DNA from: Hydrolagus colliei
Lineage: Eukaryota
Direction: 5' to 3'
Length of the DNA: 64,000 nucleotides
Assembly (NCBI GenBank): GCA_035084275.1
Contig: CM068752.1
Location: 8,122,001 to 8,186,000, forward strand
Numbering within the stretch: position 1 is the stretch's first letter; the number at the start of each line of letters is the position of its first letter. This document shows, piece by piece, positions 14,771 to 38,443 of this stretch. A model generated the notes under the pieces. That model was not told the DNA's origin. It saw nothing but the letters and a program-made list of their open reading frames with translations, and did no database searches. The translations under genes were made by a program, and so were the position numbers.

Positions 14771-17176
14771 ATGGCGAGCGCGCTCAGCTGCAGCCAGTCT
14801 CTCGTTTTGCTGCTTGTGCTCTGGGAACTTGTATCCGGCCAAATACACTACTCTGTTCCCGAGGAGACGGAACACGGCGCCTTTGTGGGGAACCTTGTGG
14901 AAGATTTAGGACTAAACGTTCGGGTGTTGGCGGATCGCAAATTCCGCCTGGTCTCCGGTGACAGAAAGCTGTATCTGAAGGTAAATTTTGACAACGGTTT
15001 TTTGTTTGTGAATGAAAGAATCGATAGGGAACAGCTATGTGGGCAAAGCTCTAGCTGCTCGCTTTCCTTTGAAGTCACGGTTGAGACTCCCATGGAATTA
15101 CATCGCGTGGAAGTGGAGATAGTGGACATAAATGATAATTCTCCCGGTTTTCTGAAAGGAGCTACCGACTTGGAGATCAGTGAATTAATTCTTCCGGGAG
15201 CGCGTTTTCCCCTCGAGAGCGCGCACGACCCGGACGTGGGCATCAACACAATCAGCTCTTATCAGATTAGTTCGAACGAATTCTTCGGGCTCAACGTACA
15301 GGCGAGAAATGATGGTACTAAAATTGTCGACTTATTGTTGGAAAAAGCTTTGGATCGGGAGCAACAGCCATCTCTTCAGCTGATCCTGACGGCAATTGAT
15401 GGTGGGAACCCGCACAGATCTGGCACCGCTGAGATTAGTATCACTGTACTGGATGCCAACGATAATGCACCTGTATTCAATCATGAAATCTACAGGGCAA
15501 ACGTTCCAGAAAACGCATCTAAAGGGACGTTAGTAACACAAATTAGTGCCGTCGATTCGGACGCGGGTACAAATGCTGGGATAACATATACCTTCTCCAA
15601 ACATTCCGCCGAAAGGGGGCGCGAGCTTTTCAGATTGGATTCTGAAACTGGTGAGATAATAGTGCAAGGAATTCTGGATTTTGAGGAAGCCAGTGTTTAC
15701 GAAATTTATGTACAAGCGACAGACAACGGCACACCTCCCATGACCGGTCATGCCAAAGCTATTGTCAAACTAATCGACGTGAATGATAACGCCCCTGAGA
15801 TAAAATTAAGTTCAGTCACCAACATGATTCCGGAAGATGCCATACCCGGGACTATGGTGGCTGCTATAACTGTTAGCGATGTAGATTCTGGAGAAAACGG
15901 ACAGGTCCGTTGCCAGATCACTACAAATATTCCATTTAAACTTCACAACATTCCAATCAATCAATACACATTGACTGTGGGTGACAAGTTGGACCGCGAA
16001 AAGCAATCTTCATACAACATCTCCATTCTAGCCTGGGATGGAGGAACCCCACCGCTGTCAGCAAACAGAACTATGTTGGTGACGGTGTCTGATGTGAATG
16101 ACAACGCCCCAGAGTTCACCCAATCTTCCTATAACGTTTACCTGATGGAGAACAATACTCCCGGGGCTTCCATATTTGCAGTGACCGCTTTAGATCCCGA
16201 TGTGGATCTGAATGGGGAAGTCTCCTATTCTGTTGTGGAGAACCAGATCCAAGACGTGTCAGCCACCGCTTATATCAGTATCAGCTCCAACAGCGGGAAC
16301 ATTTATGCGCTGCGCTCCTTTGACTACGAGCAACTGAAGCATTTCCAGATCAAAGTTCAAGCCCAGGATGGCGGGTCTCCCCCAATGAGCAGTGTTGCCC
16401 TCGTGAATGTTATAATCCTGGATCAAAATGACAATGCGCCATTTATTGTTTCACCTGTAACACGGAATAACTCAACAGCGGTTGAGATACCACTGCGGTC
16501 AACATTCCCAGGTTATTTAGTCACTAAGGTGTTGGTCACTGATGCAGATTCTGGTCAGAACGCACGGCTCTCCTATCAGCTGTTGGACGCCACTGATCCC
16601 AGTGTGTTCAGTGTGGGGCTGCTCACTGGGGAGATCAGAATACTGAGAAGGTTGTTGGAGGAAGACGCCCCAACACAAAGTCTGGTCATTTTGGTGAAGG
16701 ACAAAGGACAGCCCAGCCTGTCCAGCACGGCCACTCTTCTCTTCTCACTCCTCTCCAATGTCACTGACATTGTGTCTGAACCAGGTGACCGAACCAACAT
16801 TCGAGAGATTTTTTCGCATTTAAATCTTTATGCAATCGTCGGTTTGGGATCAACATCCGTTTTATTTCTTGTCACTATAATTCTGTTGGTTGCCATCAAG
16901 TGTAAACAAGACAGAAATAGCAGCGAAGGATACAGCTCAACAGTTTGTTGTTGTTTGGGTCAGGGAATTACTGAGGATAATTTGAAACGAAGGCCTGCAC
17001 CACGTCAAGCTGTAAATTATTCTGGAGTTGGAGCTGAACCTTACCATTACAGTATTTGCTTATCGCCAGAGTCATCCAAGAGCGAATTTCTGTACCTAAA
17101 GCCCTACACTGCCACACTGCCCTACAGTGATATCAGTGTTAACAATACAACCGCCAGACACGAATTTAAACAGTAA
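14771..17176 (+). CDS. g4: clustered protocadherin (group B), 801 aa
   Basis: Intact ORF; ends ...VNNTTARHEFKQ* like the other group B genes. Confidence 0.95.
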   Translation: MASALSCSQSLVLLLVLWELVSGQIHYSVPEETEHGAFVGNLVEDLGLNVRVLADRKFRLVSGDRKLYLKVNFDNGFLFVNERIDREQLCGQSSSCSLSFEVTVETPMELHRVEVEIVDINDNSPGFLKGATDLEISELILPGARFPLESAHDPDVGINTISSYQISSNEFFGLNVQARNDGTKIVDLLLEKALDREQQPSLQLILTAIDGGNPHRSGTAEISITVLDANDNAPVFNHEIYRANVPENASKGTLVTQISAVDSDAGTNAGITYTFSKHSAERGRELFRLDSETGEIIVQGILDFEEASVYEIYVQATDNGTPPMTGHAKAIVKLIDVNDNAPEIKLSSVTNMIPEDAIPGTMVAAITVSDVDSGENGQVRCQITTNIPFKLHNIPINQYTLTVGDKLDREKQSSYNISILAWDGGTPPLSANRTMLVTVSDVNDNAPEFTQSSYNVYLMENNTPGASIFAVTALDPDVDLNGEVSYSVVENQIQDVSATAYISISSNSGNIYALRSFDYEQLKHFQIKVQAQDGGSPPMSSVALVNVIILDQNDNAPFIVSPVTRNNSTAVEIPLRSTFPGYLVTKVLVTDADSGQNARLSYQLLDATDPSVFSVGLLTGEIRILRRLLEEDAPTQSLVILVKDKGQPSLSSTATLLFSLLSNVTDIVSEPGDRTNIREIFSHLNLYAIVGLGSTSVLFLVTIILLVAIKCKQDRNSSEGYSSTVCCCLGQGITEDNLKRRPAPRQAVNYSGVGAEPYHYSICLSPESSKSEFLYLKPYTATLPYSDISVNNTTARHEFKQ

Positions 17177-17698
17177 ATTGTTCATGAAAGTGACCGCTGT
17201 TTACTACCGCTAACCAAAAATCATATTCATGGTAACTTGGTGTGAGTTTGGGCGCGCGTAAAGTGCAGCCTAATACTGATACCTGTTTTAGTGGTCGTAA
17301 CATCTTTATTATTCCTACTGTTCGTACAAGTGCTGTGAATAGTATTATAAACCGATATTGATTAGCATTGTAAATGCTTTACATTGAATGTGGATATTGT
17401 TAACCTGATGGAAAGCTGTGTTAACCAGCTTTGTACATGCCACAGTTTACTCGCATGCTATAACTTCGAGGTTGAATACCTGACATGAGATTTCAAAAAT
17501 ACCGAGTAATTGGAGAGCAGTGTGTTCAGGAATATCGATGACTATTAGTAAGTGTTTATATATTGATATAAATCAGCCCTCAAACTTTGCTCTATATTTA
17601 AGTAGTGTTATTACATTTCTCGCTCACATTGTAAAATAAGTAGCAAATTCTGTACGAGAGAAAAACGTTTTTTTGATCATATAATAAATAAATACCAG

Positions 17699-17769
17699 TC
17701 TAGCTTTAAGGACAGTGTAATGTAGTTATTGGTTGGGACTCTTCGTGTCGCTGTATACCAATGAGGAGC
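17699..17769 (+). promoter_or_regulatory. CSE/CGCT-box promoter element of g5
   Basis: TCTAGCTTTAAG..TGTAGTTATTGG..CGTGTCGCTGTATACCAATGAGGAGC. Confidence 0.85.
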
Positions 17770-18005
17770 CGAGACGTTGGCGGCGATCTACCCCCCTCCC
17801 CCACCACAAACGGCTGAAGAGAATCGCAGGGAAACACCACAACAGTGCCTGCGTTTGCGCCGCGGATACATCGTCAGAAAGGCAATTCTAGCGGAGTTCA
17901 ATGCTTCACATTAATATCCGTTTTATATCGCGTGAAAATATATATGTGTAGCTGAAGAAGAAGCTCAAACGCTGTTGGGAACAAAGAAAATCGCAACGAG
18001 GAAGA

Positions 18006-20402
18006 ATGGCGAATGCGCTCAGCTGCGGCCCGTTCTTCATTTTGCTGTTGTTTGTCTCGGACCTGGTATCTGGGCAAATTCACTACTCGATTCCCGAGGA
18101 ACTGGAGCAAGGCGCCTTTGTTGGGAATATTGTCATAGATTTAGGATTAAACGTTGGTAAATTGTCGGCACGCAAGTTCCGGCTGGTGTCTGATGATAGC
18201 CATCAGTATTTGAAAGTAAATTTCGAAAATGGGATTTTATTTGTGAATAAAAGAATCGACAGAGAAGAGCTGTGTGGACAGAGACCGACCTGTTCCCTGT
18301 CCTTTGAAGCAGCGGTTGATAATCCTTTGGAAATGCATCCTATTGAGGTAGAGATTGTGGATATTAATGATAATTCCCCTACATTTCGGAGGAGAGAATT
18401 TTCCTTGCAAGTGAGTGAATTGATTGCGCCAGGAGCGAGCTTCCCTCTCGAGAGCGCGCATGACTCAGATGTGGGTACGAACACAATCAGTTCTTACCAG
18501 ATCAGTCCTAACGATTATTTCGGCCTGAAGGTGCAGACGAGAAACGATGGTAGTAAAATTGTGGAGTTATTGTTAGAGAAGGCTTTGGATCGCGAATTGG
18601 CGTCAAAATTTCAGCTCGTCCTTACAGCCGTTGATGGTGGCAACCCTCAGAGATCTGGCACAGCTGAGATAAGTATTGCAGTTCTAGACATTAATGACAA
18701 TGCACCTGTTTTCGATCATGAGATGTACAGGGCAAATGTACTTGAAAATGCATCGAATGCGACGCTCGTGATTCAAATAAACGCAGTTGATTTAGACGAG
18801 GGCTCAGCTGCTGCAATAAAATATAGCTTTTCCAGTCATTCATCCGAAAGGGGGCGCGAGCATTTCAAGTTGGAATCGGAAACTGGTGAGATAAAAGTTC
18901 GCGGAGTACTGGATTATGAGGCGTCAAATGTTTATGAGCTTTATGTACAAGCCACAGACAATGGTGTTCCTCCCATGGTAGGACATGCCAAAGTGGTCAT
19001 CAAAGTAACAGATGTGAACGACAATACACCAGAGATAAAACTAAGCTCGATAGCACGTGTAGTTCCCGAGGATGCTGCATTGGGAACTGTGGTTGCTTTG
19101 ATAAGTGTATCAGATCGAGATTCTGCAGAAAACGGACAGGTTCGCTGTACTGTACCAATAAACATTCCATTCAAATTTCAAACGTTTCCAAACAACCAGT
19201 ACAAGTTGGTTGTGGGCGAGGCGTTGGATCGAGAGAGAGAATCCTCGTACAACATCTCCATTCTAGCCTGGGATGGAGGAACCCCACCGCTGTCAGCAAA
19301 CAGGACTATGTTGGTGACGGTTTCTGATGTGAATGACAACGCCCCAGAGTTCATCCAATCTTCCTATAACGTTTACCTGATGGAGAACAACACTCCCGGG
19401 GCCTCCATAGCTGCAGTGACCGCTTTAGACCCCGATGTGGACCAGAATGGGGAAGTCTCCTATTCTGTGGTGGAGAACCAGATCCAAGACGTGGCAGGCA
19501 CCGCTTACATCAGTATCAGCTCCAACAGCGGGAACATTTACGCGCTGGGCTCATTTGACTACGAACAACTGAAGCATTTCCAGATCAAGGTTCAAGCCCA
19601 GGATGGCGGGTCTCCCCCAATGAGCAGTGTTGCCCTCGTGAATGTTATAATCCTGGATCAAAATGACAATGCGCCATTTATTGTAACACGGAATAACTCA
19701 ACAGCGGTGGAGATACCACTGCGGTCAACATTCCCAGGTTATTTAGTCACTAAGGTGTTGGGCACTGATGCAGATTCTGGTCAGAACGCACGGCTCTCCT
19801 ATCAGCTGTTGGACGCCACTGATCCCAGTGTGTTCAGTGTGGGGCTGCTCACTGGGGAGATCAGAACACTGAGAAGGTTGTTGGAGGAAGACGCCCCAAC
19901 ACAAAGTCTGGTCATTTTGGTGAAGGACAATGGACAGCCCAGCCTGTCCAGCACGGCCACTCTCCTCTTCTCACTCCTCTCCAATGTCACTGACATTGTA
20001 TCTGAAGCAGGTGACCGAACTAAAATTCGAGAGCATTTTTCGCATCTAAATCTTTATGCAATCGTCGGTTTAGGATCAACGTCCTTTGTATTACTTGCCA
20101 CTATAATACTGTTGGTTGCTATCAAGTGTAAACAAGACAGAAACATCACCGAAGAATACAGCTCAACAGTTTGTTGTTGTTCGGGTCAGGGAATTACTGA
20201 GGATAATTTTAAACGAAGGCCTGCACCACATCAAGCTGTAAATTATTCTGGAGTTGGAGCTGAACCTTACCATTACAGTATTTGCTTATCGCCAGAGTCA
20301 TCGAAGAGTGAATTTCTGTATCTGAAGCCCTACACTGCCACCTTGCCCTACAGTGATGTCGGTGTTAACAACACAACCGCCAGACACGAATTTAAACAGT
20401 AA
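18006..20402 (+). CDS. g5: clustered protocadherin (group B), 798 aa
   Basis: Intact ORF; 3-codon deletion at the EC5/EC6 boundary relative to paralogs. Confidence 0.95.
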   Translation: MANALSCGPFFILLLFVSDLVSGQIHYSIPEELEQGAFVGNIVIDLGLNVGKLSARKFRLVSDDSHQYLKVNFENGILFVNKRIDREELCGQRPTCSLSFEAAVDNPLEMHPIEVEIVDINDNSPTFRRREFSLQVSELIAPGASFPLESAHDSDVGTNTISSYQISPNDYFGLKVQTRNDGSKIVELLLEKALDRELASKFQLVLTAVDGGNPQRSGTAEISIAVLDINDNAPVFDHEMYRANVLENASNATLVIQINAVDLDEGSAAAIKYSFSSHSSERGREHFKLESETGEIKVRGVLDYEASNVYELYVQATDNGVPPMVGHAKVVIKVTDVNDNTPEIKLSSIARVVPEDAALGTVVALISVSDRDSAENGQVRCTVPINIPFKFQTFPNNQYKLVVGEALDRERESSYNISILAWDGGTPPLSANRTMLVTVSDVNDNAPEFIQSSYNVYLMENNTPGASIAAVTALDPDVDQNGEVSYSVVENQIQDVAGTAYISISSNSGNIYALGSFDYEQLKHFQIKVQAQDGGSPPMSSVALVNVIILDQNDNAPFIVTRNNSTAVEIPLRSTFPGYLVTKVLGTDADSGQNARLSYQLLDATDPSVFSVGLLTGEIRTLRRLLEEDAPTQSLVILVKDNGQPSLSSTATLLFSLLSNVTDIVSEAGDRTKIREHFSHLNLYAIVGLGSTSFVLLATIILLVAIKCKQDRNITEEYSSTVCCCSGQGITEDNFKRRPAPHQAVNYSGVGAEPYHYSICLSPESSKSEFLYLKPYTATLPYSDVGVNNTTARHEFKQ

Positions 20403-20908: not shown

Positions 20909-20979
20909 TCTAGCTTTAACAAAAGTGTAATGTAGTTATTGGTCGGGACTCTTCGTGTCGCTGTGTACCAATGAGGAGC
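20909..20979 (+). promoter_or_regulatory. CSE/CGCT-box promoter element of g6
   Basis: TCTAGCTTTAAC..TGTAGTTATTGG..CGTGTCGCTGTGTACCAATGAGGAGC. Confidence 0.85.
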
Positions 20980-21215: not shown

Positions 21216-23621
21216 ATGGCGTATGCGCTCAGCTGCGGGCCGACATTCATTTTGCTGTTGTTTGTCTCGGACCTGATATCTGGGCAAATTCACTATTCGA
21301 TTCCCGAGGAACTGGAGCAAGGCGCCTTTGTTGGGAATATCGTTAGAGATTTGGGGTTAAAGATTGAGAAATTGTCGGCTCGCAAATTCCGGCTGGTGTC
21401 TGATGACAGCCATCAATATCTGAAGGTAAATTTTGCAAATGGGATTCTATTTGTGAATGAAAGAATCGACAGAGAAGAGCTGTGTGGACAGAGCCCGACC
21501 TGTTCCCTTTCCTTTGAAGCAGCGGTTGATAATCCTTTGGAGGTGCATGAAATTGAAGTAGAGATTTTAGACATTAATGATAATATTCCTAGGTTTCCAA
21601 GTGAAAAGATTGCCTTGGAAATTTTTGAGTCAATATTGCCAGGAGCGAGCTTCCCTCTCGAGAGTGCGTATGATCCTGACGTGGGCACGAATACAATCAA
21701 TGCTTACCAGATCAGTTCTAACGATTATTTCGGCCTGAAGGTGCAGACGAGAAGCGATGGTAGTAAAATTGTGGAGTTGTTGTTAGAGAAAGCTTTGGAT
21801 CGTGAACAGGAGTCAGCGATTATTCTTGTCCTGACTGCTTCTGATGGCGGAAATCTCCACAGATCTGGTACTTCTGAGATAAGTATCACTATTCTGGATA
21901 TTAATGACAATGCCCCCGTATTTAATTCAGAAATATACAGGGCAAGTCTGCCAGAAAATGCAGCGAATGGGACACTAGTTATTCGAATCAACGCTGCTGA
22001 TTTAGACGAAGGTACAAATGCTGAGGTAAAATATAGCTTCTCCAAACATTCTGCCGAAAGGGGGCGCCAGGTTTTTCAGTTAAATCCAGAAACTGGTGAC
22101 ATACAGGTTCATGGAGAACTAGACTATGAGGAGTTAAATAGTTATGAACTTTATGTACAAGCAACAAACAAAGGTACACCCCCAATGGTGGCGCAGTCAA
22201 AAGTTATTGTCAACTTAATGGATATCAATGATAATGCTCCTGAAATAAAATTGAGTTCGATGTCACGTGTCGTCTCAGAAGATGCTGCAATCGGAAATGT
22301 GGTGGCTTTGATCAGTGTATCGGATCGTGATTCCGGCGAAAACGGACAAGTTCAATGCAAGGTTCCCAGGAACATCCCGTTCAGACTTGAAAAGTCTCCC
22401 AACAATCAGTACAAGTTGGTTGTGGGCGAGGCGTTGGATCGAGAGAAGGAATCCTCGTACAACATCTCCATTCTAGCCTGGGATGGAGGAACCCCACCGC
22501 TGTCAGCAAACAGAACTATGTTGGTGACGGTTTCTGATGTGAATGACAACGCCCCAGAGTTCACCCAATCTTCCTATAACGTTTACCTGATGGAGAACAA
22601 CACTCCCGGGGCCTCCATAGTTGCAGTGACCGCTTTAGATCCCGATGTGGACCAAAACGGGGAAGTCTCCTATTCTGTTGTGGAGAACCAGATCCAAGAC
22701 GTGTCAGCCACCGCTTACATCAGTATCAGCTCCAACAGCGGGAACATTTACGCGCTGCGATCCTTTGACTACGAACAACTGAAGCATTTCCAGATCAAAG
22801 TTCAAGCCCAGGATGGCGGGTCTCCCCGAATGAGCAGTGTTGCCCTCGTGAATGTTATAATCCTGGATCAAAATGACAATGCGCCATTTATTGTTTCACC
22901 TGTAACACGGAATAACTCAACAGCGGTGGAGATACCACTGCGGTCAACATTCCCAGGTTATTTAGTCACTAAGGTGATGGGCACTGATGCAGATTCTGGT
23001 CAGAACGCACGGCTCTCCTATCAGCTGTTGGACGCCACTGATCCCAGTGTGTTCAGTGTGGGGCTGCTCACTGGGGAGATCAGAACACTGAGAAGGCTGT
23101 TGGAGGAAGACGCCCCAACACAAAGTCTGGTCATTTTGGTGAAGGACAATGGACAGCCCAGCCTGTCCAGCACGGCCACTCTCCTCTTCTCACTCCTCTC
23201 CAATGTCACTGACATTGTGTCTGAACCACGTGACTATTCTTACATTCGAGACAATTTTTCGCATTTAAATCTTTACGCAATTATCGGTTTAGGATCGACG
23301 TCATTTATATTGCTCCTTACCATAGTTCTGTTGGTTGCCATCAAGTGCAAACAGGATAGAAATATCACTGAAGGATACGGTAGCGCAATTTGTTGTTGTT
23401 TGGCTCAGGGAATTTCTGATGATAACTTTAATCGACGGCCTTCACCACATCAAGCTGTAAATTATTCTGGAGTTGGAGCTGAACCTTATCATTACAGTAT
23501 TTGCTTATCGCCGGAGTCATCCAAGAGCGAATTTCTGTATCTGAAGCCCTACACTGCCACCTTGCCCTACAGTGATATCAGTGTTAACAACACAACCGCC
23601 AGACACGAACTTAAACAGTAA
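21216..23621 (+). CDS. g6: clustered protocadherin (group B), 801 aa
   Basis: Intact ORF with SP-6EC-TM-tail. Confidence 0.95.
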   Translation: MAYALSCGPTFILLLFVSDLISGQIHYSIPEELEQGAFVGNIVRDLGLKIEKLSARKFRLVSDDSHQYLKVNFANGILFVNERIDREELCGQSPTCSLSFEAAVDNPLEVHEIEVEILDINDNIPRFPSEKIALEIFESILPGASFPLESAYDPDVGTNTINAYQISSNDYFGLKVQTRSDGSKIVELLLEKALDREQESAIILVLTASDGGNLHRSGTSEISITILDINDNAPVFNSEIYRASLPENAANGTLVIRINAADLDEGTNAEVKYSFSKHSAERGRQVFQLNPETGDIQVHGELDYEELNSYELYVQATNKGTPPMVAQSKVIVNLMDINDNAPEIKLSSMSRVVSEDAAIGNVVALISVSDRDSGENGQVQCKVPRNIPFRLEKSPNNQYKLVVGEALDREKESSYNISILAWDGGTPPLSANRTMLVTVSDVNDNAPEFTQSSYNVYLMENNTPGASIVAVTALDPDVDQNGEVSYSVVENQIQDVSATAYISISSNSGNIYALRSFDYEQLKHFQIKVQAQDGGSPRMSSVALVNVIILDQNDNAPFIVSPVTRNNSTAVEIPLRSTFPGYLVTKVMGTDADSGQNARLSYQLLDATDPSVFSVGLLTGEIRTLRRLLEEDAPTQSLVILVKDNGQPSLSSTATLLFSLLSNVTDIVSEPRDYSYIRDNFSHLNLYAIIGLGSTSFILLLTIVLLVAIKCKQDRNITEGYGSAICCCLAQGISDDNFNRRPSPHQAVNYSGVGAEPYHYSICLSPESSKSEFLYLKPYTATLPYSDISVNNTTARHELKQ

Positions 23622-27725: not shown

Positions 27726-30131
27726 ATGGCGAATGCGCTCAGCTGCGGGCCGTCCTTCATTTTGCTGTTGTTTGTCTCGGACCTGGTATCTGGGCAAATC
27801 CACTATTCGATTCCCGAGGAACTGGAGCAAGGCGCCTTTGTTGGGAATATCGTTAAAGATTTAGGGTTAAAGATTGAGAAATTGTCGGCTCGCAAGTTCC
27901 GGCTGGTGTCTGATGACAGCCATCAGTATTTGAAGGTAAATTTTGAAAATGGGATTTTATTTGTGAATGAAAGAATCGACAGAGAAGATCTGTGTGGACA
28001 GAGCCCGACCTGTTCCCTTTCCTTTGAAGCGGCGGTTGATAATCCTTTAGAGGTGCATCCTATTGAGGTAGAGATTGTGGATATTAATGATAATTCTCCG
28101 AATTTTCCGAAAGAAGAATTTGCCTTGCAGATTGGGGAATGGATTGCACCGGGAGCGAGCTTCCCTCTCGAGAGCGCGCATGATCCTGACGTTGGAGCGA
28201 ACACAATCGGCACTTACCAGATCAGTTCTAACGATTATTTCGGCATAAAATTGCAAACCAGAGGCGATGGCAGTAAGCGTGCAGAACTGCTGCTGGAGAA
28301 GGTATTGGACCGTGAAGAAAAATCGGAGTTTGAGCTGATCCTGACGGCTATTGACGGTGGAAATCCACACAGATCTGGCACAGCCAAGATAATTATCATA
28401 ATTGCTGACATTAACGATAACGCGCCTATTTTCGATCATGAGATATACAGGGCAACTATTCGAGAAAATGCTTCGAAGGGGTCGTTAGTGATCAAAATCA
28501 AAGCTATCGATTTGGACACAGGTACAAATGCTGAGGTAAAATATACATTTTCCAGTTACTCCTCCGAAAGGGGGCGCGTGATTTTCAAATTAGATTCTGA
28601 CAGTGGAGAGATAAAGGTAGACGGAGATCTCGATTTCGAGGAGGCAAATGTTTATGAGCTTTATGTACAAGCAACAGACAAGGGGATGACTCCATTGGCG
28701 GGCCATGCCAAAGTTAATGTCAAACTAATTGACGTGAATGATAACGCCCCTGAGATCAAATTACGTTCTATTTCACGAGTGGTTCCCGAGGATGTTACAC
28801 ACGGGACTGTGGTGGCTTTGATCAGTGTAATTGACCGCGATTCGGGTGAAAATGGACAAGTTCGTTGCAAGATTCCTACGAACGTGCCGTTCAGACTTGA
28901 AAAATCGCCTAACAACCAGTACAAGTTGGTTGTGGGCGAGGCGTTGGATCGAGAGAGAGAATCCTCGTACAACATCTCCATTCTAGCCTGGGATGGAGCA
29001 ACCCCACCGCTGTCAGCAAACAGAACTATGTTGGTGACGGTTTCTGATGTGAATGACAACGCCCCAGAGTTCACCCAATCTTCCTATAACGTTTACCTGA
29101 TAGAGAACAACACTCCCGGGGCCTCCATATTTGCAGTGACCGCTTTAGACCCCGATGTGGACCAGAATGGAAAAGTCTCCTATTCTGTTGTGGAGAACCA
29201 GATCCAAGACGTGTCAGCCACCGCTTACATCAGTATCAGCTCCAACAGCGGGAATATTTACGCGCTGCGCTCCTTTGACTACGAACAACTGAAGCATTTC
29301 CAGATCAAAGTTCAAGCCCAGGATGGCGGGTCTCCCCGAATGAGCAGTGTTGCCCTCGTGAATGTTATAATCCTGGATCAAAATGACAATGCGCCATTTA
29401 TTGTTTCACCTGTAACACGGAATAACTCAACAGCGGTGGAGATACCACTGCGGTCAACATTCCCAGGTTATTTAGTCACTAAGGTGTTGGGCACTGATGC
29501 AGATTCTGGTCAGAACGCACGGCTCTCCTATCAGCTGTTGGACGCCACTGATCCCAGTGTGTTCAGTGTGGGGCTGCTCACTGGGGAGATCAGAACACTG
29601 AGAAGGTTGTTGGAGGAAGACGCCCCAACACAAAGTCTGGTCATTTTGGTGAAGGACAATGGACAGCCCAGCCTGTCCAGCACGGCCACTCTCCTCTTCT
29701 CACTCCTCTCCAATGTCACTGACATTGTGTCTGAATCAGGTGACCGAACCAACGTTCGAGAGATTTTTTCGCATTTAAATCTTTATGCAATCGTCGGTTT
29801 GGGATCAACTTCCTTTTTATTTCTTGTCACTATAATACTGCTGCTTGGCATCAAGTTTAAACAAAATAGAAACATCTGCGAAGGAGACAGTTCCTCAGTT
29901 TGCTGTTGTTTGGGTCATGGAATTTCTGATGATAACTTTAATCGAAGGCCTGCACCACGTCAAGCTGTAAATTATTCTGGAGTAGGAGCTGAACCTTATC
30001 ATTACAGTATTTGCTTATCGCGAGAGTCATCGAAGAGCGAATTTCTGTACCTGAAGCCCTACACTGCCACGTTACCCTACAGTGATGTCAGTGTAAACAA
30101 CACAACCGCCAGACACGAATTCAAACAATAA
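27726..30131 (+). CDS. g8: clustered protocadherin (group B), 801 aa
   Basis: Homologous ATG at 27726 (MANALSCG); an in-frame upstream ATG also exists at 27672. Confidence 0.95.
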   Translation: MANALSCGPSFILLLFVSDLVSGQIHYSIPEELEQGAFVGNIVKDLGLKIEKLSARKFRLVSDDSHQYLKVNFENGILFVNERIDREDLCGQSPTCSLSFEAAVDNPLEVHPIEVEIVDINDNSPNFPKEEFALQIGEWIAPGASFPLESAHDPDVGANTIGTYQISSNDYFGIKLQTRGDGSKRAELLLEKVLDREEKSEFELILTAIDGGNPHRSGTAKIIIIIADINDNAPIFDHEIYRATIRENASKGSLVIKIKAIDLDTGTNAEVKYTFSSYSSERGRVIFKLDSDSGEIKVDGDLDFEEANVYELYVQATDKGMTPLAGHAKVNVKLIDVNDNAPEIKLRSISRVVPEDVTHGTVVALISVIDRDSGENGQVRCKIPTNVPFRLEKSPNNQYKLVVGEALDRERESSYNISILAWDGATPPLSANRTMLVTVSDVNDNAPEFTQSSYNVYLIENNTPGASIFAVTALDPDVDQNGKVSYSVVENQIQDVSATAYISISSNSGNIYALRSFDYEQLKHFQIKVQAQDGGSPRMSSVALVNVIILDQNDNAPFIVSPVTRNNSTAVEIPLRSTFPGYLVTKVLGTDADSGQNARLSYQLLDATDPSVFSVGLLTGEIRTLRRLLEEDAPTQSLVILVKDNGQPSLSSTATLLFSLLSNVTDIVSESGDRTNVREIFSHLNLYAIVGLGSTSFLFLVTIILLLGIKFKQNRNICEGDSSSVCCCLGHGISDDNFNRRPAPRQAVNYSGVGAEPYHYSICLSRESSKSEFLYLKPYTATLPYSDVSVNNTTARHEFKQ

Positions 30132-30675: not shown

Positions 30676-30746
30676 TCTAGCTTTAAGGACAGTGTAATGT
30701 AGTTATTGGTTGGGACTCTTCGTGTCGCTGTGTACCAATGAGGAGC
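30676..30746 (+). promoter_or_regulatory. CSE/CGCT-box promoter element of g9
   Basis: Same element as g5-g8. Confidence 0.85.
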
Positions 30747-30982: not shown

Positions 30983-33388
30983 ATGGCGAATGCGCTCAGC
31001 TGCGGGCCGTCCTTCATTTTGCTGTTGTTTGTCTCGGACCTGGTATCTGGGCAAATTCACTACTCGATTCCCGAGGAACTGGAGCAAGGCGCCTTTGTTG
31101 GGAATATCGTTAGAGATTTGGGTTTAAAAATTGAGAAATTGTCGGCTCGCAAGTTCCGGCTGGTGTCTGATGACAGCCATCAGTATCTGAAGGTAAATTT
31201 TGAAAATGGGATTTTATTTGTGAATGAAAGAGTCGACAGAGAAGAGCTGTGTGGACAGAGCCCGACCTGTTCCCTTTCCTTTGAAGCATCGGTTGATAAT
31301 CCTTTGGAAATGTATTCTGTTAACGTAGAGATTGTGGATATTAATGATCACTCGCCGAATTTTCTGAAAGAAAAAATTTACTTAGAGATTGGTGAGTCGA
31401 TTGCACCAGGTGCGAGCTTCCCTCTCCAGAGCGCGCATGATGCCGATGTGGGCGTGAACACAATCAGTACTTACCAGATTAGTTCTAACGATTATTTCGG
31501 CTTGAATGTACAGACTACAAGTGATGGTGGTAAAATTGTGGAGCTGTTGTTGGAAAAGGCTTTGGATCGGGAGCAGGAGTCAACGTTTCAGCTTGTCCTA
31601 ATGGCAGTTGATGGTGGCAACCCACATAGGTCTGGCATAGCGGAGATTAGTATTATTGTGCTGGACGCCAATGATAATGCACCTATATTCAACCATGAAA
31701 TATACAAGGCAAGTATACCAGAAAATGCCCCGAAAGGTACCTCAGTAACACAAATCAAAGCTGCTGATTTGGATACAGGTACAAATGCAGAGGTAAAATA
31801 TAGTTTTTCTAGTCACTCTTCCGAAAGGGGGCGTGAGATTTTCCTGCTGGATTCGGAAAGTGGTGAGATAAATGTTAATGGAGATCTGAATTTTGAGGAA
31901 TCAAATGTGTTTGAACTCTATGTACAAGCGACAGACAATGGTGCATTTGCACTGACGGGTCGTGCCAAAGTTGTTATCAAAGTAATTGACGTGAACGATA
32001 ACGCCCCTGAGATAAAACTGAGTTCGACCTCACGTGTGGTCCCAGAAGATGCTGCAATCGGAAATGTAGTGGCTTTGATCAGTGTATCGGATCGTGATTC
32101 CGGCGAAAACGGACAAGTTCATTGCAAGATTCCAAGGAACATCCCATTCAGACTTGAAAAGTCTCCCAACAACCAATACAAGTTGGTTGTGGGCGAGGCG
32201 TTAGATCGAGAGAAAGAATCCTCGTACAACATCTCCATTCTAGCCTGGGATGGAGGAACCCCACCGCTGTCAGCAAACAGAACTATGTTGGTGACGGTTT
32301 CTGATGTGAATGACAACGCCCCAGAGTTCACCCAATCTTCCTATAACATTTACCTGATGGAGAACAACACTCCCGGGGCCTCCATATTTGCAGTGACCGC
32401 TTTAGACCCCGATGTGGACCAGAATGGGGAAGTCTCCTATTCTGTTGTGGAGAACCAGATCCAAGACGTGTCAGCCACCGCTTACATCAGTATCAGCTCC
32501 AACAGCGGGAACATTTACGCGCTGCGCTCCTTTGACTACGAACAACTGAAGCATTTCCAGATCAAAGTTCAAGCCCAGGATGGCGGGTCTCCTCCAAGGA
32601 GCAGTGGTGCCCTCGTGAATGTTATAATCCTGGATCAAAATGACAATGCGCCATTTATTGTTTCACCAGTAACACGGAATAACTCAACAGCGGTGGAGAT
32701 ACCACTGCGGTCAACATTCCCAGGTTATTTAGTCACTAAGGTGTTGGGCACTGATGCAGATTCTGGTCAGAACGCTCGGCTCTCCTATCAGCTGTTGGAC
32801 GCCACTGATCCCAGTGTGTTCAGTGTGGGGCTGCTCACTGGGGAGATCAGAACACTGAGAAGGTTGTTGGAGGAAGACGCCCCAACACAAAGTCTGGTCA
32901 TTTTGGTGAAGGACAATGGACAGCCCAGCATGTCCAGCACGGCCACTCTCCTCTTCTCACTCCTGTCCAATGCCACTGACATTGTGCCTGAAGAAAATGA
33001 CCGATTGAATATTCGGGACGATTTGTCGCATCTAAATCTTTATGCAATCGTCGGTTTGGGATCAACATCCTTTTTATTTCTCGTCACTATAATTCTGTTG
33101 GTTGCTATCAAGTATAAACAGGACAGAAATATCAGCGAAGGATACAGCTCAACAGTTTGTTGTTGTTTGAGTCAGGGAATTTCCGAGCATAACTTTAGTC
33201 GAAGGTCTGCACCACATCAGGCAATAAATTATTCTGGAGTTGGAGCTGAACCTTACCATTACAGTATTTGCTTATCGCCAGAGTCATCGAAGAGCGAATT
33301 TCTGTACCTAAAGCCCTACACTGCCACCTTACCCTACAGTGATGTCAGTGTTAACAATACAACCGCCAGACACGAATTTAAACAGTAA
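30983..33388 (+). CDS. g9: clustered protocadherin (group B), 801 aa
   Basis: Intact ORF with SP-6EC-TM-tail. Confidence 0.95.
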   Translation: MANALSCGPSFILLLFVSDLVSGQIHYSIPEELEQGAFVGNIVRDLGLKIEKLSARKFRLVSDDSHQYLKVNFENGILFVNERVDREELCGQSPTCSLSFEASVDNPLEMYSVNVEIVDINDHSPNFLKEKIYLEIGESIAPGASFPLQSAHDADVGVNTISTYQISSNDYFGLNVQTTSDGGKIVELLLEKALDREQESTFQLVLMAVDGGNPHRSGIAEISIIVLDANDNAPIFNHEIYKASIPENAPKGTSVTQIKAADLDTGTNAEVKYSFSSHSSERGREIFLLDSESGEINVNGDLNFEESNVFELYVQATDNGAFALTGRAKVVIKVIDVNDNAPEIKLSSTSRVVPEDAAIGNVVALISVSDRDSGENGQVHCKIPRNIPFRLEKSPNNQYKLVVGEALDREKESSYNISILAWDGGTPPLSANRTMLVTVSDVNDNAPEFTQSSYNIYLMENNTPGASIFAVTALDPDVDQNGEVSYSVVENQIQDVSATAYISISSNSGNIYALRSFDYEQLKHFQIKVQAQDGGSPPRSSGALVNVIILDQNDNAPFIVSPVTRNNSTAVEIPLRSTFPGYLVTKVLGTDADSGQNARLSYQLLDATDPSVFSVGLLTGEIRTLRRLLEEDAPTQSLVILVKDNGQPSMSSTATLLFSLLSNATDIVPEENDRLNIRDDLSHLNLYAIVGLGSTSFLFLVTIILLVAIKYKQDRNISEGYSSTVCCCLSQGISEHNFSRRSAPHQAINYSGVGAEPYHYSICLSPESSKSEFLYLKPYTATLPYSDVSVNNTTARHEFKQ

Positions 33389-33923
33389 CTTGGTATCGGA
33401 AGTGAAGGCTGTTCATTTCTGTTTAAAAAAACGTAACTCGGTATTTGTTTTGGGCTTGTGTAAAGATGCACCTAATACCTATATAAGATTGTTTTCCAGG
33501 AAAATTTATTTTTAGTCGTACTGCGGTTGCGACTGAGGTAAATTTAATTCGAAACGGATATTGCTTGAAATTTTCAGCGCTTTGTGTGCCGTGTGATTGT
33601 ACTGGTGACAGCGGGATGTTCGAATTTATTGTAAAAGCAACAGTTTATTCGCATGCCACAATTTCAAAGTTGAATGATTGATATGGATAACATATACTAA
33701 GAAGTAAACAGCAAATTGTTTTCCGAGTATAAGTGGGAAAACGTGAAGGTTGATAACATCACATATACAGACTCAGTGTGACTGCTCCTAAAAGTTTTAT
33801 TCGGTTAAAAATGTTTAATTAGATCAGATTTAGGTTCTAACATAATTAGGGACATCTGTATCACAGGATAAGTTTTGACAGTAGATGACAAAAATAAGGT
33901 TTCGATGATACAATAAATATCAG

Positions 33924-33993
33924 TCTAGCTTTAAGCAAAATGTAATGTAGTTATTGGTTGGACTCTTCGTGTCGCTGTATACCAATGAGGAGC
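33924..33993 (+). promoter_or_regulatory. CSE/CGCT-box promoter element of g10 (1-bp shorter spacer)
   Basis: TTATTGGTTGGACTCTTCGTGTCGCTGTATACCAATGAGG; one G is missing relative to paralogs. Confidence 0.85.
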
Positions 33994-34230
33994 CGAGACG
34001 TTGGCGGCGATCTACCCCCCTCCCCCACCACAAAAGGCTGAAGAGAATCGCAGCGAAACACCACAACAGTGCCTGCGTTTGTGCCGCGGAGACATTTTCA
34101 GAAAGGCAGATCTAGCGGTGTTCAAGGTTTCACATTAATATCATTATTGAATCGCTGGAAAACTTACATTTTCTAGTTGGGTAAAATGCTGCAACGCTGT
34201 TGGAAACAAAGAAAATCACAAAGAGGAAGA

Positions 34231-36639
34231 ATGGCGAATGCGCTCAGCTGCGGGCCGTCCTTCATTTTGCTGTTGTTTGTCTCGGATCTGGTATCTGGGC
34301 GAATTCACTACTCGATTCCCGAGGAACTGGAGCAAGGCGCCTTTGTTGGGAATATCGCTAGAGATTTAGGGTTAAAGATTGAGAAATTGTCCACTCGCAA
34401 GTTCCGGTTGGTGTCTGATGACAGCCATCAGTATCTGAAGGTAAATTTTGAAAATGGGATTTTATTTGTGAATGAAAGAATCGACAGAGAAGAGCTGTGT
34501 GGACAGAGCCCGACCTGTTCCCTTGCCTTTGAAGCAGCGGTTGATAATCCTTTGGAGGTGCATCCTATGGAGGTAGAGATTGTGGACATTAATGATCATT
34601 CCCCGAATTTTCTGAAAGAAAAAATTGCTTTGCAGATTTGGGAATCAAGTGCATTAGGAGCGAGCTTCCCTCTCGAGAGCGCACATGATCCTGACGTGGG
34701 CGTGAACACAATCAGTACTTACCAGATCAGCTCTAACAACTATTTCGGTCTGAAGGTACAGACCAGAAGCGATGGTAGTAGTAAAATTGTGGAGTTATTG
34801 TTGGAGAAGGTTTTGGATCGTGAACAGGAGTCAGAGGTTCAGCTGATTCTGACAGCGATTGACGCAGGCAATCCTCAGATGTCTGGCACAGCTATGATTA
34901 GTGTTACTGTGCTGGATGTGAATGATAATGCTCCAACATTTGATCATGAAATATACAGAATAAATATCCCAGAAAATGCACAGAGGCTTACCTTGCTGAC
35001 ACAAATCAAGGCTATCGATTTGGATGAAGGTAGCAATGCTGAAGTAAAATATAGTTTTTCAAGTCATTCTTCCGAAAGGGGGCGCGAGCTTTTCCTGTTA
35101 GATTCGGAAACTGGTGAGATAAGGGTTCAAGGGAATCTCGATTTTGAGGAGGCAAATATTTACGAACTGTATCTGCAAGCCACAGACAAGGGAACGCCCT
35201 CATTGGTGGGCCATGCGAACGTTATTGTCAAATTAATTGACGTGAATGATAACGCCCCTGAGATAAAATTGCGTTCGCTATCACGTGTGCTTCCCGAGGA
35301 TGTTAAACCCGGGACTGTGGTGGCTGTGATCAGTGCAACTGACCGAGATTCCGGTGAAAACGGACAGGTTCAATGCAGAGTTCCTATGAACGTCCCATTT
35401 AGACTTGAAAAGTCTCCCAACAACCAGTACAAGTTGGTTGTGGGCGAGGCGTTGGATCGAGAGAAAGAATCCTCGTATAACATCTCCATTCTAGCCTGGG
35501 ATGGAGGAACTCCACCGCTGTCAGCAAACAGAACTATGTTGGTGACGGTTTCTGATGTGAATGACAACGCCCCAGAGTTCACCCAATCTTCCTATAACGT
35601 TTACCTGTTGGAGAACAACACTCCCGGGGCCTCCATATTTGCAGTGACCGCTTTAGATCCCGATGTGGACCAGAATGGGGAAGTCTCCTATTCTGTTGTG
35701 GAGAAACAGATCCAAGGCATGTCAGCCACCGCTTACATCAGTATCAGCTCCAACAGCGGGAACATTTACGCGCTGCGCTCCTTTGACTACGAACAACTGA
35801 AGCATTTCCAGATCAAGGTTCAATCCCAGGATGGCGGGTCTCCCCCAATGAGCAACGTTGCCCTCGTGAATGTTATAATCCTGGATCAAAATGACAATGC
35901 GCCATTTATTGTTTCACCTGTAACACGGAATAACTCAACAGCGGTGGAAATACCACTGCTGTCAACATTCCCAGGTTATTTAGTCACTAAGGTGTTGGGC
36001 ACTGATGCAGATTCTGGTCAGAACGCACGGCTCTCCTATCAGCTGTTGGACGCCACTGATCCCAGTGTGTTCAGTGTGGGGCTGCTCACTGGGGAGATCA
36101 GAACACTGAGAAGGTTGTTGGAGGAAGACGCCCCAACACAAAGTCTGGTCATTTTGGTGAAGGACAATGGACAGCCCAGCCTGTCCAGCACGGCCACTCT
36201 CCTCTTCTCACTCCTGTCCAATGTCACTGACATTGTGCCTGATCCAAGTAACCATTCTTACATTCGGCACAATTTTTCGGATCTTAACCTTTTTGCAATC
36301 GTCGGTTTGGCATCAACTTCCATTGTATTTCTTGTCACTATAATTCTATTGGTTGTCATCAAGTGTAAACAAGATAGACATATCAGTGAAAGATACAGTT
36401 CCATAGTTTGCTGTTGTTTGGGTAAGGAGATTTCTGTTGATAACTATAATCGAGGGCCTGCATCACATCAAGCCATAAATTACTCTGGAGTTGGAGCTGA
36501 ACCTTACCACTACAGTATTTGCTTATCTCCAGAATCATCGAAGAGCGAATTCCTGTATCTGAAACCATACACCGCCACCTTGCCCTATAATGATGTCAGT
36601 GTTAACAACACAGCTGTCAGACACGAGTTTAAACAGTAA
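34231..36639 (+). CDS. g10: clustered protocadherin (group B), 802 aa
   Basis: Homologous ATG at 34231; one extra Ser in EC2 (DGSSKIV, AGT duplication). Confidence 0.95.
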   Translation: MANALSCGPSFILLLFVSDLVSGRIHYSIPEELEQGAFVGNIARDLGLKIEKLSTRKFRLVSDDSHQYLKVNFENGILFVNERIDREELCGQSPTCSLAFEAAVDNPLEVHPMEVEIVDINDHSPNFLKEKIALQIWESSALGASFPLESAHDPDVGVNTISTYQISSNNYFGLKVQTRSDGSSKIVELLLEKVLDREQESEVQLILTAIDAGNPQMSGTAMISVTVLDVNDNAPTFDHEIYRINIPENAQRLTLLTQIKAIDLDEGSNAEVKYSFSSHSSERGRELFLLDSETGEIRVQGNLDFEEANIYELYLQATDKGTPSLVGHANVIVKLIDVNDNAPEIKLRSLSRVLPEDVKPGTVVAVISATDRDSGENGQVQCRVPMNVPFRLEKSPNNQYKLVVGEALDREKESSYNISILAWDGGTPPLSANRTMLVTVSDVNDNAPEFTQSSYNVYLLENNTPGASIFAVTALDPDVDQNGEVSYSVVEKQIQGMSATAYISISSNSGNIYALRSFDYEQLKHFQIKVQSQDGGSPPMSNVALVNVIILDQNDNAPFIVSPVTRNNSTAVEIPLLSTFPGYLVTKVLGTDADSGQNARLSYQLLDATDPSVFSVGLLTGEIRTLRRLLEEDAPTQSLVILVKDNGQPSLSSTATLLFSLLSNVTDIVPDPSNHSYIRHNFSDLNLFAIVGLASTSIVFLVTIILLVVIKCKQDRHISERYSSIVCCCLGKEISVDNYNRGPASHQAINYSGVGAEPYHYSICLSPESSKSEFLYLKPYTATLPYNDVSVNNTAVRHEFKQ

Positions 36640-37166
36640 TTGTTTCGTGGTATTCATGGATGTATTGTCATGTTAAACATAACTAATATTCAAGGCAACA
36701 TTGTTTTGTTCGTTCCTAATCAGCCTCCTTGTATGCAAATCTGTTTTGTGTTGATAATAATCCCCATTGTTCCCGCTGTGCTTACGACTGCGGCAAATAA
36801 GATACTGATCGGATACTGCTTATTATTTGGAATGTTCTCTACTCTGTGGAATCTCCATTAATGACTAAGGGACGTTGGGAAATATTGTGGCAGAAAAAAT
36901 TGTTTGTATGCCATTATCTCCAAGTTGAATATCTGACATGGAATAAAATATAGCCAGCATTGGACAACAGTTATCTTCCAGGAATAACTAACAGTAATGG
37001 TTCATAACTTCAGGTATAGAGTGTCAAGGCTCATAAAATGGTAAATATTGTGGGAAAATATATGTTGTTAAATCATGCTATAATTGTAGGATAGCTCTGG
37101 CCAGTAGAACCAGAACATACAAAATGCGTGTAGAAAATAAGGTTTCGATTATACAATAAATACCAG

Positions 37167-37237
37167 TCTAGCTTTAAGGAAAGCGTAATGTAGTTATTGG
37201 TTGGGACTCTTCGTGTCGCTGTGTACCAATGAGGAGC
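37167..37237 (+). promoter_or_regulatory. Intact CSE/CGCT-box promoter element of the deleted gene g11
   Basis: TCTAGCTTTAAG..TGTAGTTATTGGTTGGGACTCTTCGTGTCGCTGTGTACCAATGAGGAGC. Confidence 0.85.
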
Positions 37238-37470
37238 AGAGACGTTTGCGGCGATCTACCCCCCTCCCCCACCACAAAAGGCTGAAGAGAATCGCTGCGA
37301 AACACAACAGTGCCTGCGTTTGCGCCGCGGAGACAGCTTCAGAAAGGCAGATCTAGCGGTGTTCAGTGTTTCACGTTAATATCTATAGTAGATCGCGTGA
37401 AAATATATATTTTGTAATTGAAGAAGAAGTTCAACGCTGGTGGTAACAAAGAAAATCACAGCGCAGAAGA

Positions 37471-38443
37471 ATGGCGAATGCGCTCAGCTGCGGGCGGTCC
37501 TTCATTTTGCTGTTGTTTGTCTCGGACCTGGTATCTGGGCAAATCCACTATTCCATTCCCGAGGAACTGGAGCAAGGCGCCTTTGTTGTGAATATCGTTA
37601 GAGATTTGGGGATAAAGATTGAGGAATTGTCGGCTCGCAAGTTCCGGCTGGTGTCTGATGACAGCCGTCAGTATCTGAAGGTAAATTTTGAAAATGGGAT
37701 TTTATTTGTGAATGAAAGAATCGACAGAGAAGAGCTGTGTGGACAGAGCCCGACCTGTTCCCTTTCATTTGAAGCATTGGTTGACAATCCTTTAGAGGTG
37801 CATCCTATTGAAGTAGAGATTGTGGATATTAATGATAATCCGTCAAATTTTCCAAAAGAAAAAATAACGTTGCAGATTGGTGAATGGATTTCACCGGGAG
37901 CGAGCTTCCCTCTGGAGAGCGCGGATGATCCGGACGTGGGCGTGAACACAATCAGTACATATCAGATCAGTTCTAACTGTCCAGAGAGTGGCCTGTCCAG
38001 CACGGCCACTCTCCTTTTCTCACTCCTGTCCAATGTCACTGACATTGTGCCTGAACCAATTGACCGATACAATATTGGGGGCGACTTTTCTAATCTAAAC
38101 ATTTATGTAATTGTCGGATTGGGATCAACTTCCTTTATATTTCTTGTCACTATAACTCTGCTGGTTGCTGTCAAGTGTAACCAAGACAGAAATGTCACTG
38201 AGGGGTACAACTTCACAGTTTGTTGTTGTTTGGGTCAGGGGATTCGTGACGATAACTTTACTCGAAGGCCTGCAGCACACCAACCTATAAATTATACCGG
38301 AGCTGGAGCTGAAATTTACCATTTGCTTTTCCCCAGAGTCATCGAAGAGTGAGTTTGTTTACCTGAAGCCCTACACTGCCACGTTACCGTACAGTGATAT
38401 GAGTGTCAACAACACAACCGCCAGACGTGAATTGAAGCAGTAA
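37471..38443 (+). pseudogene. g11: group B protocadherin with an in-frame ~1.4-kb deletion (EC2-EC6) and an 8-nt tail frameshift; ORF 37471-38352, 293 aa
   Basis: EC2 ...YQISSN joins via CPESG to the end of EC6 (LSSTATLLFSLL). TM is retained. The fossil tail continues out of frame to ...ELKQ* at 38443. Confidence 0.85.

What the first reader, a model, noticed from the sequence alone, without database searches (positions are those of the whole stretch)
14771..38443. Five-zone mosaic in group B: a 'virtual constant region' made by gene conversion instead of splicing
Seen: along each gene, identity among paralogs alternates. Promoter+SP+EC1 are near-identical (g5-g11); EC2 to mid-EC4 are divergent; late EC4-EC6 are near-identical (e.g. 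22409-23216); the juxtamembrane/TM region is divergent; and the last ~50 codons are near-identical (NYSGVGAEPYHYSICLSPESSKSEFLYLKPYTATLPYSD.SVNNTTARHEFKQ). Known: cPcdh trans specificity uses EC1:EC4 and EC2:EC3 contacts, and alpha/gamma isoforms obtain a common tail by splicing. Inference: here each gene carries its own copy of a common tail kept uniform by conversion and/or selection, while identity is concentrated in EC2/EC3. This is the best candidate for an undescribed design in this window.
Basis: partly seen in the sequence, partly recalled or inferred. Interest (0 to 1): 0.75.

Follow-up and report, generated by a model that had tools for sequence, protein, structure and literature searches.

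The report
Gene conversion in chimaera protocadherin array
Eight neighbouring nerve-cell adhesion genes, likely from a chimaera (shark relative), show a known patchwork in which two blocks were likely overwritten by gene conversion and the recognition domains stayed distinct, while the shared tail is likely kept by ordinary selection, so this is not a new design.

Summary
g4-g11 match elephant shark protocadherin epsilon6-13. Among g5-g10, dS is 0.16 in SP+EC1, 0.83 in EC2 to mid-EC4, 0.05 in late EC4-EC6, 0.37 around the TM and 0.31 in the 53-codon tail. Late EC4-EC6 groups by species (100/99), whereas EC2 to mid-EC4 gives cross-species pairs, so conversion there is well supported. The tail differs: six times the dS of EC4b-EC6, the lowest dN/dS (0.06), no species-diagnostic residue, and 8 of 50 codons replaced plus a frameshift in broken g11, against 7 of 318 in intact genes. 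It is held mainly by selection on a motif shared with other clustered protocadherins, with some older homogenisation. Mammalian single-exon beta paralogues already carry near-identical EC5-to-tail copies, and EC2/EC3 diversity is published. The 5' block excludes g4, and g11 lacks EC3-EC5. Splicing could not be tested. What may be new is the strength of conversion in a lineage reported to have little, and the non-collinear order of the recognition blocks.

The parts
14771..17176 (+). g4, intact 801-aa clustered protocadherin ORF; orthologue of elephant shark epsilon6; shares late EC4-EC6 and tail with the group but not promoter-EC1
18006..20402 (+). g5, intact 798-aa ORF; EC2 to mid-EC4 closest to epsilon12 (support 90/86, not starred)
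21216..23621 (+). g6, intact 801-aa ORF; no clear orthologue among epsilon6-13
24465..26870 (+). g7, intact 801-aa ORF; six cadherin repeats, TM, PF16492 at residues 683-777; no clear orthologue
27726..30131 (+). g8, intact ORF; EC2 to mid-EC4 pairs with epsilon9 (98/95)
30983..33388 (+). g9, intact 801-aa ORF; EC2 to mid-EC4 pairs with epsilon11 (96/90)
34231..36639 (+). g10, intact ORF; EC2 to mid-EC4 pairs with epsilon8 (99/99); most divergent tail of the intact genes
37471..38443 (+). g11, likely pseudogene: about 1.43 kb in-frame loss from mid-EC2 to the end of EC6, 8-nt deletion in the tail (ORF stops at 38352), decayed tail, promoter-EC1 still like the intact genes
21216..21584 (+). Zone 1 (example g6): signal peptide + EC1, homogenised together with about 300 bp of promoter; dS 0.16
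21585..22403 (+). Zone 2 (g6): EC2, EC3, first half of EC4; divergent (dS 0.83), keeps cross-species orthology
22404..23210 (+). Zone 3 (g6): second half of EC4 to EC6; converted block (dS 0.05, raised GC3, species-diagnostic residues)
23211..23459 (+). Zone 4 (g6): stalk, transmembrane helix and proximal cytoplasmic segment; dS 0.37, dN/dS 0.49
23460..23618 (+). Zone 5 (g6): 53-codon tail; first 30 residues lie in or next to PF16492 and align with beta tails, last about 23 are group-specific; dS 0.31, dN/dS 0.06
20955..20963 (+). CGCT-containing promoter element before g6; the same element lies at 14480, 17745, 24205, 27462, 30722, 33969 and 37213
   Evidence: a CGCT element in elephant shark and mammalian clusters is mentioned in PMC2926608

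Best explanation
g4-g11 are a tandem group of protocadherin-epsilon genes, likely single-exon and likely from a chimaera, whose patchwork likely comes from two separate processes: gene conversion in two blocks and ordinary purifying selection on the tail. Shown: the zones, the dS and dN values, the species-versus-orthologue split of the trees, and the decay of the tail in broken g11. Inferred: frequent non-allelic conversion overwrites late EC4-EC6 and, less completely, promoter-SP-EC1. Those parts tolerate uniformity because in mammalian studies EC5-EC6 make promiscuous cis dimers and EC1/EC4 give non-selective affinity. EC2 to mid-EC4 escape conversion, were already distinct before the split from elephant shark, and would carry isoform-specific trans recognition. 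The TM-to-stop region has been exchanged only rarely (dS about 0.3 throughout); within it the last 53 residues stay alike because replacements are removed. Their core is the variable-cytoplasmic-domain motif that in mouse mediates endolysosomal trafficking and cis association (inferred by homology). The genes thus work like mammalian Pcdh-beta: every isoform ends in its own copy of a short conserved tail.
For: Zone dS with bootstrap intervals. Silent variation in 22 of 46 tail codons against 22 of 238 in EC4b-EC6 (p=6e-9) and 17 of 28 in TM+juxtamembrane (p=0.34). GC3 0.56-0.61 in EC4b-EC6, 0.37-0.49 in EC2 to mid-EC4, 0.45 in the tail. EC4b-EC6 tree splits by species 100/99 and rejects 4 of 4 orthologue pairs tested (AU p 2e-7 to 0.006); 8 species-diagnostic residues in EC5-EC6, 3 in EC1, 0 in EC2 to mid-EC4, 0 in the tail. 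EC2 to mid-EC4 tree has 4 starred cross-species pairs and rejects a species clade (p=1.7e-6). g11: 8 of 50 tail codons replaced against 7 of 318 in g5-g10 (p=2e-4), but 6 of 123 against 35 of 738 in SP+EC1 (p=1.0). g3 has no paralogue with the same tail, yet differs from its elephant shark counterpart at 4 of the last 67 residues, against 88% identity in EC2-3. g1-g3 and g12-g14 share EC5 at 92-98% but, apart from the g12-g14 trio, tails at only 58-76%. Beta paralogues of 9 mammals: EC1-3 62-68%, EC5-TM 99%, tail core 90% (20 pairs). Literature.
Against: Tail dS (0.31; 0.22 without g10) is well below EC2 to mid-EC4 (0.83; Fisher p=0.006) and below the 3' flank (about 0.47-0.62 after correction), so some homogenisation of the tail did happen. 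One pair shares 68 exact bases there. Zero diagnostic residues in 53 is weak: about 1.6 are expected at the EC4b-EC6 rate, and a species clade is not rejected for the tail (AU p=0.057). g11 is the last gene of the run and might simply be converted less; its replacement-to-silent ratio differs only at p=0.046, and it was left out of the consensus it is compared with. No elephant shark DNA was available, so cross-species tests are protein-only. No transcript data. No paper I could read states that epsilon lacks constant exons.
Confidence: 0.8

Rival explanations
1. The tail is a conversion-maintained module: a third conversion tract copies the last 53 codons between paralogues and so replaces splicing.
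For: Tail nucleotide identity 0.92 against 0.82 just upstream; four-fold sites 0.18 [0.09-0.28] against 0.39-0.48 in EC2 to mid-EC4; dS 0.22 without g10; identity drops to about 0.60 right after the stop.
Against: Tail dS equals that of the divergent TM zone (0.31 against 0.37) and is six times that of EC4b-EC6; GC3 is not raised; none of the 6 of 21 significant pairwise tracts lies in the tail; the g11 tail decays while its 5' block stays alike; no species-diagnostic residue.
Confidence: 0.12
2. The ORFs are variable exons that are spliced at or near their end to constant exons outside the window, so a real constant region exists.
For: 6 of 7 intact genes have GT inside the last codon and stop (CA|GTAA); donor-like sites follow the stops of g1, g3, g15 and g16; the window ends before the cluster does.
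Against: That site scores -0.4 to 0.1 where listed, against 5.6-6.7 for the g1, g3 and g16 sites; g8 has no GT there; elephant shark epsilon8 and 9 end in His at that place, and all eight epsilon6-13 records end at the same residue as the window ORFs; an AATAAA lies 495-534 bases after the stop of 7 of 7 intact genes, though it sits at the edge of the next promoter block.
Confidence: 0.07
3. The near-identical zones come from collapsed or cross-polished assembly of repeats, or from recent whole-gene duplication.
For: Blocks of 0.8 kb at 96-99% identity are prone to mis-assembly.
Against: An independent species shows the same zones with its own fixed residues; the divergent block predates the species split, which excludes recent whole-gene duplication; each copy has private differences.
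Confidence: 0.02

Closest known systems
Elephant shark (Callorhinchus milii) protocadherin epsilon6-epsilon13 (UniProt B0YN61-B0YN68)
   Same: Eight genes, about 800 aa, same tail consensus to the last residue, same zone pattern as protein; g16 matches epsilon17 (87% over EC1-3)..
   Different: Only 5 of 7 intact genes have a matching partner, in another order; g11 is broken. Elephant shark is reported to have little conversion (dS ratio 1.8-2.3, as cited in PMC2764143); here EC2/EC6 is about 32 by a different method.
Mammalian Pcdh-beta subcluster
   Same: No constant exons (PMC2764143); each gene carries a near-identical EC5-EC6 and a conserved tail core homologous to the epsilon tail; conversion reported in EC6 and cytoplasmic domains of human protocadherins (PMC4828864).
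   Different: In the beta pairs EC1 is divergent (62%) and the TM region is uniform (99%); in epsilon EC1 and the promoter are homogenised and the TM region is not. Epsilon is described as having no orthologue in bony vertebrates.
Regional gene conversion in fugu and zebrafish Pcdh2 alpha/gamma groups
   Same: Sharp boundary in EC4/EC5, near-identical 3' ectodomain, raised GC3, EC2/EC3 spared (PMC1852091).
   Different: In fugu the tract runs to the end of the variable exon at over 99%, and the exons are spliced to constant exons; here it stops at the end of EC6.
VCD motif of mouse Pcdh-gamma-A3 (PF16492 region)
   Same: A roughly 26-residue segment of the variable cytoplasmic domain, almost identical among all gamma-A isoforms and recognisable in alpha and beta (PMC4660814); the epsilon tail shows Gly, Tyr-x-Tyr, aliphatic-Cys-Leu, Ser/Lys-rich and aromatic parts in line with beta tails.
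   Different: Epsilon adds about 23 group-specific conserved residues; function is untested in any cartilaginous fish; I did not see the paper's alignment figure.

Membership tests
Clustered protocadherins | Signal peptide, six cadherin repeats, TM and short cytoplasmic part in one ~2.4-kb ORF | tested here: met
   Cadherin_2 + five Cadherin + PF16492 in 4 of 4 proteins scanned; ORFs
Clustered protocadherins | Tandem same-strand array, each gene with its own CGCT-type promoter element | tested here: met
   Element about 260-290 bases before the ATG of 8 of 8 genes g4-g11
Clustered protocadherins | Neuronal stochastic expression and homophilic trans binding | not testable with these tools
   No RNA or binding data
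Pcdh-epsilon (group epsilon6-13) | Closest relatives are the named elephant shark epsilon genes | tested here: met
   Top hits epsilon8/epsilon9 at 83-85% over the last 142 residues, next other species at most 56%; 4 starred orthologue pairs
Pcdh-epsilon (group epsilon6-13) | Position between delta and mu subclusters | not testable with these tools
   No genome held; window lies inside epsilon (g16 = epsilon17)
Beta-like single-exon protocadherins (works like) | No splicing to constant exons | tested here: inconclusive
   No good donor, GT lost in g8, database records end at the same residue; no transcripts
Pcdh-beta subcluster (membership) | Orthology to mammalian/coelacanth beta genes | not tested
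   No tree across subclusters built; PMC2764143 says epsilon has no orthologue in bony vertebrates
Regional gene conversion (concerted evolution) | Low dS and raised GC3 in the block; paralogues closer than orthologues: late EC4-EC6 | tested here: met
   dS 0.05, GC3 0.56-0.61, species split 100/99
Regional gene conversion (concerted evolution) | Same test for promoter-SP-EC1 | tested here: met
   dS 0.16, promoters 92-97%, 3 diagnostic residues, 3 of 3 orthologue pairs among g5-g10 rejected at p 0.009-0.05; the species clade itself is weak (55/31)
Regional gene conversion (concerted evolution) | Same test for the 53-codon tail | tested here: not met
   dS 0.31, GC3 0.45, 0 diagnostic residues, no species clustering (5 label changes, as in shuffles); partial older homogenisation not excluded
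Alpha/gamma constant region equivalent | Homology to the constant cytoplasmic domain | tested here: not met
   g7 matches PF16492 and no other cytoplasmic family among its 6 Pfam hits; the tail aligns with variable-exon tails of beta genes

The most novel reading that the evidence does not exclude
The EC2 to mid-EC4 block behaves as a movable recognition cassette. Held between two homogenised flanks (promoter-EC1 and late EC4-EC6), it is transferred between positions by conversion or unequal crossover, so that old specificities are reassigned to new promoters and new cytoplasmic ends. Hints: cassette order in the window is 6, 12, ?, ?, 9, 11, 8 against 6-13 in elephant shark; the TM zone rejects the g10-epsilon8 and g8-epsilon9 pairings (AU p 0.001 and 0.002); g13 is a fresh g14/g12 hybrid. 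Block duplication with differential loss explains the order equally well.
Probability: 0.2. Interest if true: 0.5.

Novelty: new member of a known kind. Interest (0 to 1): 0.22.

Why it matters
Modestly. It shows that strong regional conversion of clustered protocadherins also operates in cartilaginous fishes, where reviews cite little of it, so the process is probably as old as the cluster. The broken g11 and the two-species comparison separate conversion from selection zone by zone. Because isoforms g5-g10 differ mainly in EC2 to mid-EC4, they are a natural panel for testing whether that block alone sets trans specificity. It is not a new way of making a constant region.

Tried and rejected
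No genome is held for the window, so constant exons could not be sought. No RNA holder listed; this says nothing on expression or splicing. The one run listed (X1, contigs, kind not on record, possibly the window's own source) was laid on 20500-40400: pieces over the g6, g7 and g10 ends and the 3' part of g11 fit with 0-4 other letters and no gaps. This is not independent support. The two primary papers (Yu 2008 PNAS; Noonan 2004 Genome Res) are not held. The permutation test for pairwise tracts found 6 of 21 pairs at global P<0.05 (SP/EC1, EC4, stalk-TM, juxtamembrane); it has little power in the fully homogenised block, where few sites vary. The whole-ectodomain homologue search was dominated by fused gene models and gave only epsilon17. 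Two AU tests in the TM zone did not finish. Earlier findings of the scan: nothing. Rejected: recent whole-gene duplication (divergent block is older than the species split), assembly collapse (same pattern in a second species), tail as homologue of the alpha/gamma constant region. No fold or complex prediction was run, as it would not bear on the question.
Full report
What the window is. The window holds 16 complete or broken same-strand protocadherin ORFs and the start of a seventeenth, each with six cadherin repeats, a TM helix and PF16492 (4 of 4 scanned). The last 142 residues of g7 are 83-85% identical to elephant shark 'protocadherin epsilon8/epsilon9' and at most 56% to other species. 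Cluster look-up gave epsilon6-13, and g16 matches epsilon17. The source is therefore likely a chimaera other than the elephant shark (inference; orthologous EC2 to mid-EC4 blocks are only 78-81% identical).

Observation. The five zones are there (coordinates in parts). Among g5-g10, Nei-Gojobori dS with codon-bootstrap intervals is 0.16 [0.11-0.23] for SP+EC1, 0.83 [0.71-0.98] for EC2 to mid-EC4, 0.05 [0.03-0.08] for late EC4-EC6, 0.37 [0.27-0.51] for stalk-TM-juxtamembrane and 0.31 [0.20-0.44] for the tail. Promoters are 92-97% identical among g5-g11; 3' flanks are 59-82%. g11 was left out of the dS table because it lacks about 1.43 kb and has a frameshift. g4 takes part only in the 3' zones.

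Conversion is real in two blocks. With 7 window and 8 elephant shark proteins, late EC4-EC6 splits by species (100/99) and rejects all 4 orthologue pairs tested; 8 residues in EC5-EC6 are nearly fixed in one species and different in the other. EC2 to mid-EC4 does the opposite: g4-epsilon6, g8-epsilon9, g9-epsilon11 and g10-epsilon8 are starred pairs, g5-epsilon12 is weaker, g6 and g7 have no partner, and a species clade is rejected (p=1.7e-6). So the genes are older than the species split, and their 3' ectodomains were overwritten afterwards. GC3 is raised in the block, as in fugu. EC1 shows the same process more weakly (3 diagnostic residues; species clade 55/31). A decayed copy at 40.4-42.3 kb still has a 62-residue EC5 stretch 92% identical to g12 amid 35-50% elsewhere, which suggests that conversion ignores function.

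The tail is held mainly by selection. Its dS matches the 'divergent' TM zone and is six times that of the converted block; its dN/dS, 0.06 [0.02-0.13], is the lowest of all zones. Silent variation affects 22 of 46 invariant-residue codons, against 22 of 238 in late EC4-EC6. The two species have no diagnostic tail residue, and the tail tree does not cluster by species. In broken g11 the tail has 8 replacements in 50 codons and a frameshift, against 7 in 318 for g5-g10, while its SP+EC1 is as uniform as theirs. g3, with no paralogue of like tail, keeps 63 of its last 67 residues across the same species split (alignment). The other conversion group (g1-g3, g12-g14) shares EC5 without sharing tails. 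Results against this reading: tail dS is below EC2 to mid-EC4 (p=0.006) and below the 3' flank, and falls to 0.22 without g10, so older or rarer exchange across the TM-to-stop region is likely; the lack of diagnostic residues is not significant alone; g11 may be converted less because it ends the run.

Splicing. No transcript could be examined. In g4-g10 the only shared GT lies in the last codon and stop, scores near zero on a recalled donor matrix, and is absent in g8; the best site within 250 bases before to 300 after the stop differs from gene to gene. All eight elephant shark records end at the same residue as the window ORFs. An AATAAA lies 495-534 bases after 7 of 7 stops, at the edge of the next promoter block. 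I recall that the 2008 paper describes epsilon as lacking constant exons, but I could not read it, and none of the passages I read says so. Single-exon structure is likely, not shown.

How it likely works. From mammalian studies, EC5-6/EC6 cis dimers are promiscuous (PMC8901172, passages), EC1/EC4 gives non-selective affinity and EC2/EC3 specificity (PMC5001838, abstract and section 8). Uniformity is therefore tolerated in the converted blocks and not in EC2/EC3 (inference). The tail core aligns with beta tails and fits the described VCD motif, which is almost identical among gamma-A isoforms and needed for endolysosomal trafficking and cytoplasmic association (PMC4660814, parts 1-2 of 4; PMC3216661, passages). 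Its role in epsilon is inferred. The last about 23 residues are specific to this group and of untested function.

Comparison with what is known. Regional conversion sparing EC2/EC3 is described for fugu (PMC1852091, passages and section 7), frog, mouse and zebrafish (PMC4978886, passages) and human, where it concentrates on EC6 and the cytoplasmic domain (PMC4828864, passages). Beta genes lack constant exons (PMC2764143, passages and section 3). I took 23 of the 120 listed beta proteins, those forming same-species sets: 20 pairs in 9 species average 62-68% in EC1-3, 99% in EC5-TM and 90% in the tail core. They were found by tail similarity, so the tail figure is biased upward, and some pairs may be variants of one gene. 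Still, per-gene copies of a common end already exist in mammals. Differences here: EC1 and promoter are homogenised, and the TM zone is not.

Novelty. The design is known. Two points may be unreported: an EC2/EC6 dS ratio near 32 in a cartilaginous fish, against 1.8-2.3 cited for elephant shark (other method, unknown grouping), with elephant shark epsilon7-13 itself showing the signature as protein; and the non-collinear order of the recognition blocks (elephant shark order taken from gene numbers and two fused gene models). Searches found no paper on either, but the two primary papers and their supplements were not readable and may cover the first. PMC2926608 was seen as passages only.

Verdict. 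Observation confirmed; interpretation partly supported; new member of a known kind; interest 0.22.

Noticed in passing
window 43860-47242 and 47220-50602: A 3360-bp tandem duplication (24 mismatches from 43900 to 47242; 46130-47242 identical to its copy) makes g13 a hybrid of g14's promoter-EC1-early EC2 and g12's remainder; recent unequal crossover or assembly error.
   Followed up: partly
window 1421-12866 and 43411-52569: g1-g3 and g12-g14 share EC5 at 92-98% and early EC6 at 94-100% nucleotide identity across the intervening group B, about 30 kb, but not their tails: a second conversion group that goes by sequence, not by neighbourhood.
   Followed up: partly
window 40365-42341, promoter element at 40096: Decayed protocadherin pseudogene in several frames; its EC5 stretch 41680-41865 is 92% identical to g12 as protein, the rest 35-50%.
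   Followed up: partly
window 3899, 12881, 56780, 60080 (after the stops of g1, g3, g15, g16): Donor-like sites 10-55 bases behind the stop codon; those of g1 and g3 are 2 of the 5 best of 3694 GT sites on the plus strand. Possibly vestiges of splicing to lost constant exons, or 3' UTR introns.
   Followed up: no
window 18375-35421: EC2 to mid-EC4 blocks match elephant shark epsilon12, 9, 11, 8 in that order (g5, g8, g9, g10), not collinear with the elephant shark numbering.
   Followed up: partly
window 23211-23264 and equivalents: The 18-codon stalk between EC6 and the TM has dN/dS about 1.4 among paralogues; few sites, not tested for positive selection.
   Followed up: no
window 29970-30128; 19194-19991: g8 has Arg for the otherwise invariant Pro in the tail motif; g5 lacks three residues at the start of EC6.
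   Followed up: no
window 13312: A CGCT-type promoter motif between g3 and g4 with no gene remnant found behind it by tblastn.
   Followed up: no
window 39756-40100: High-copy repeat just before the decayed pseudogene's promoter (summed contig depth about 49000 in run X1).
   Followed up: no
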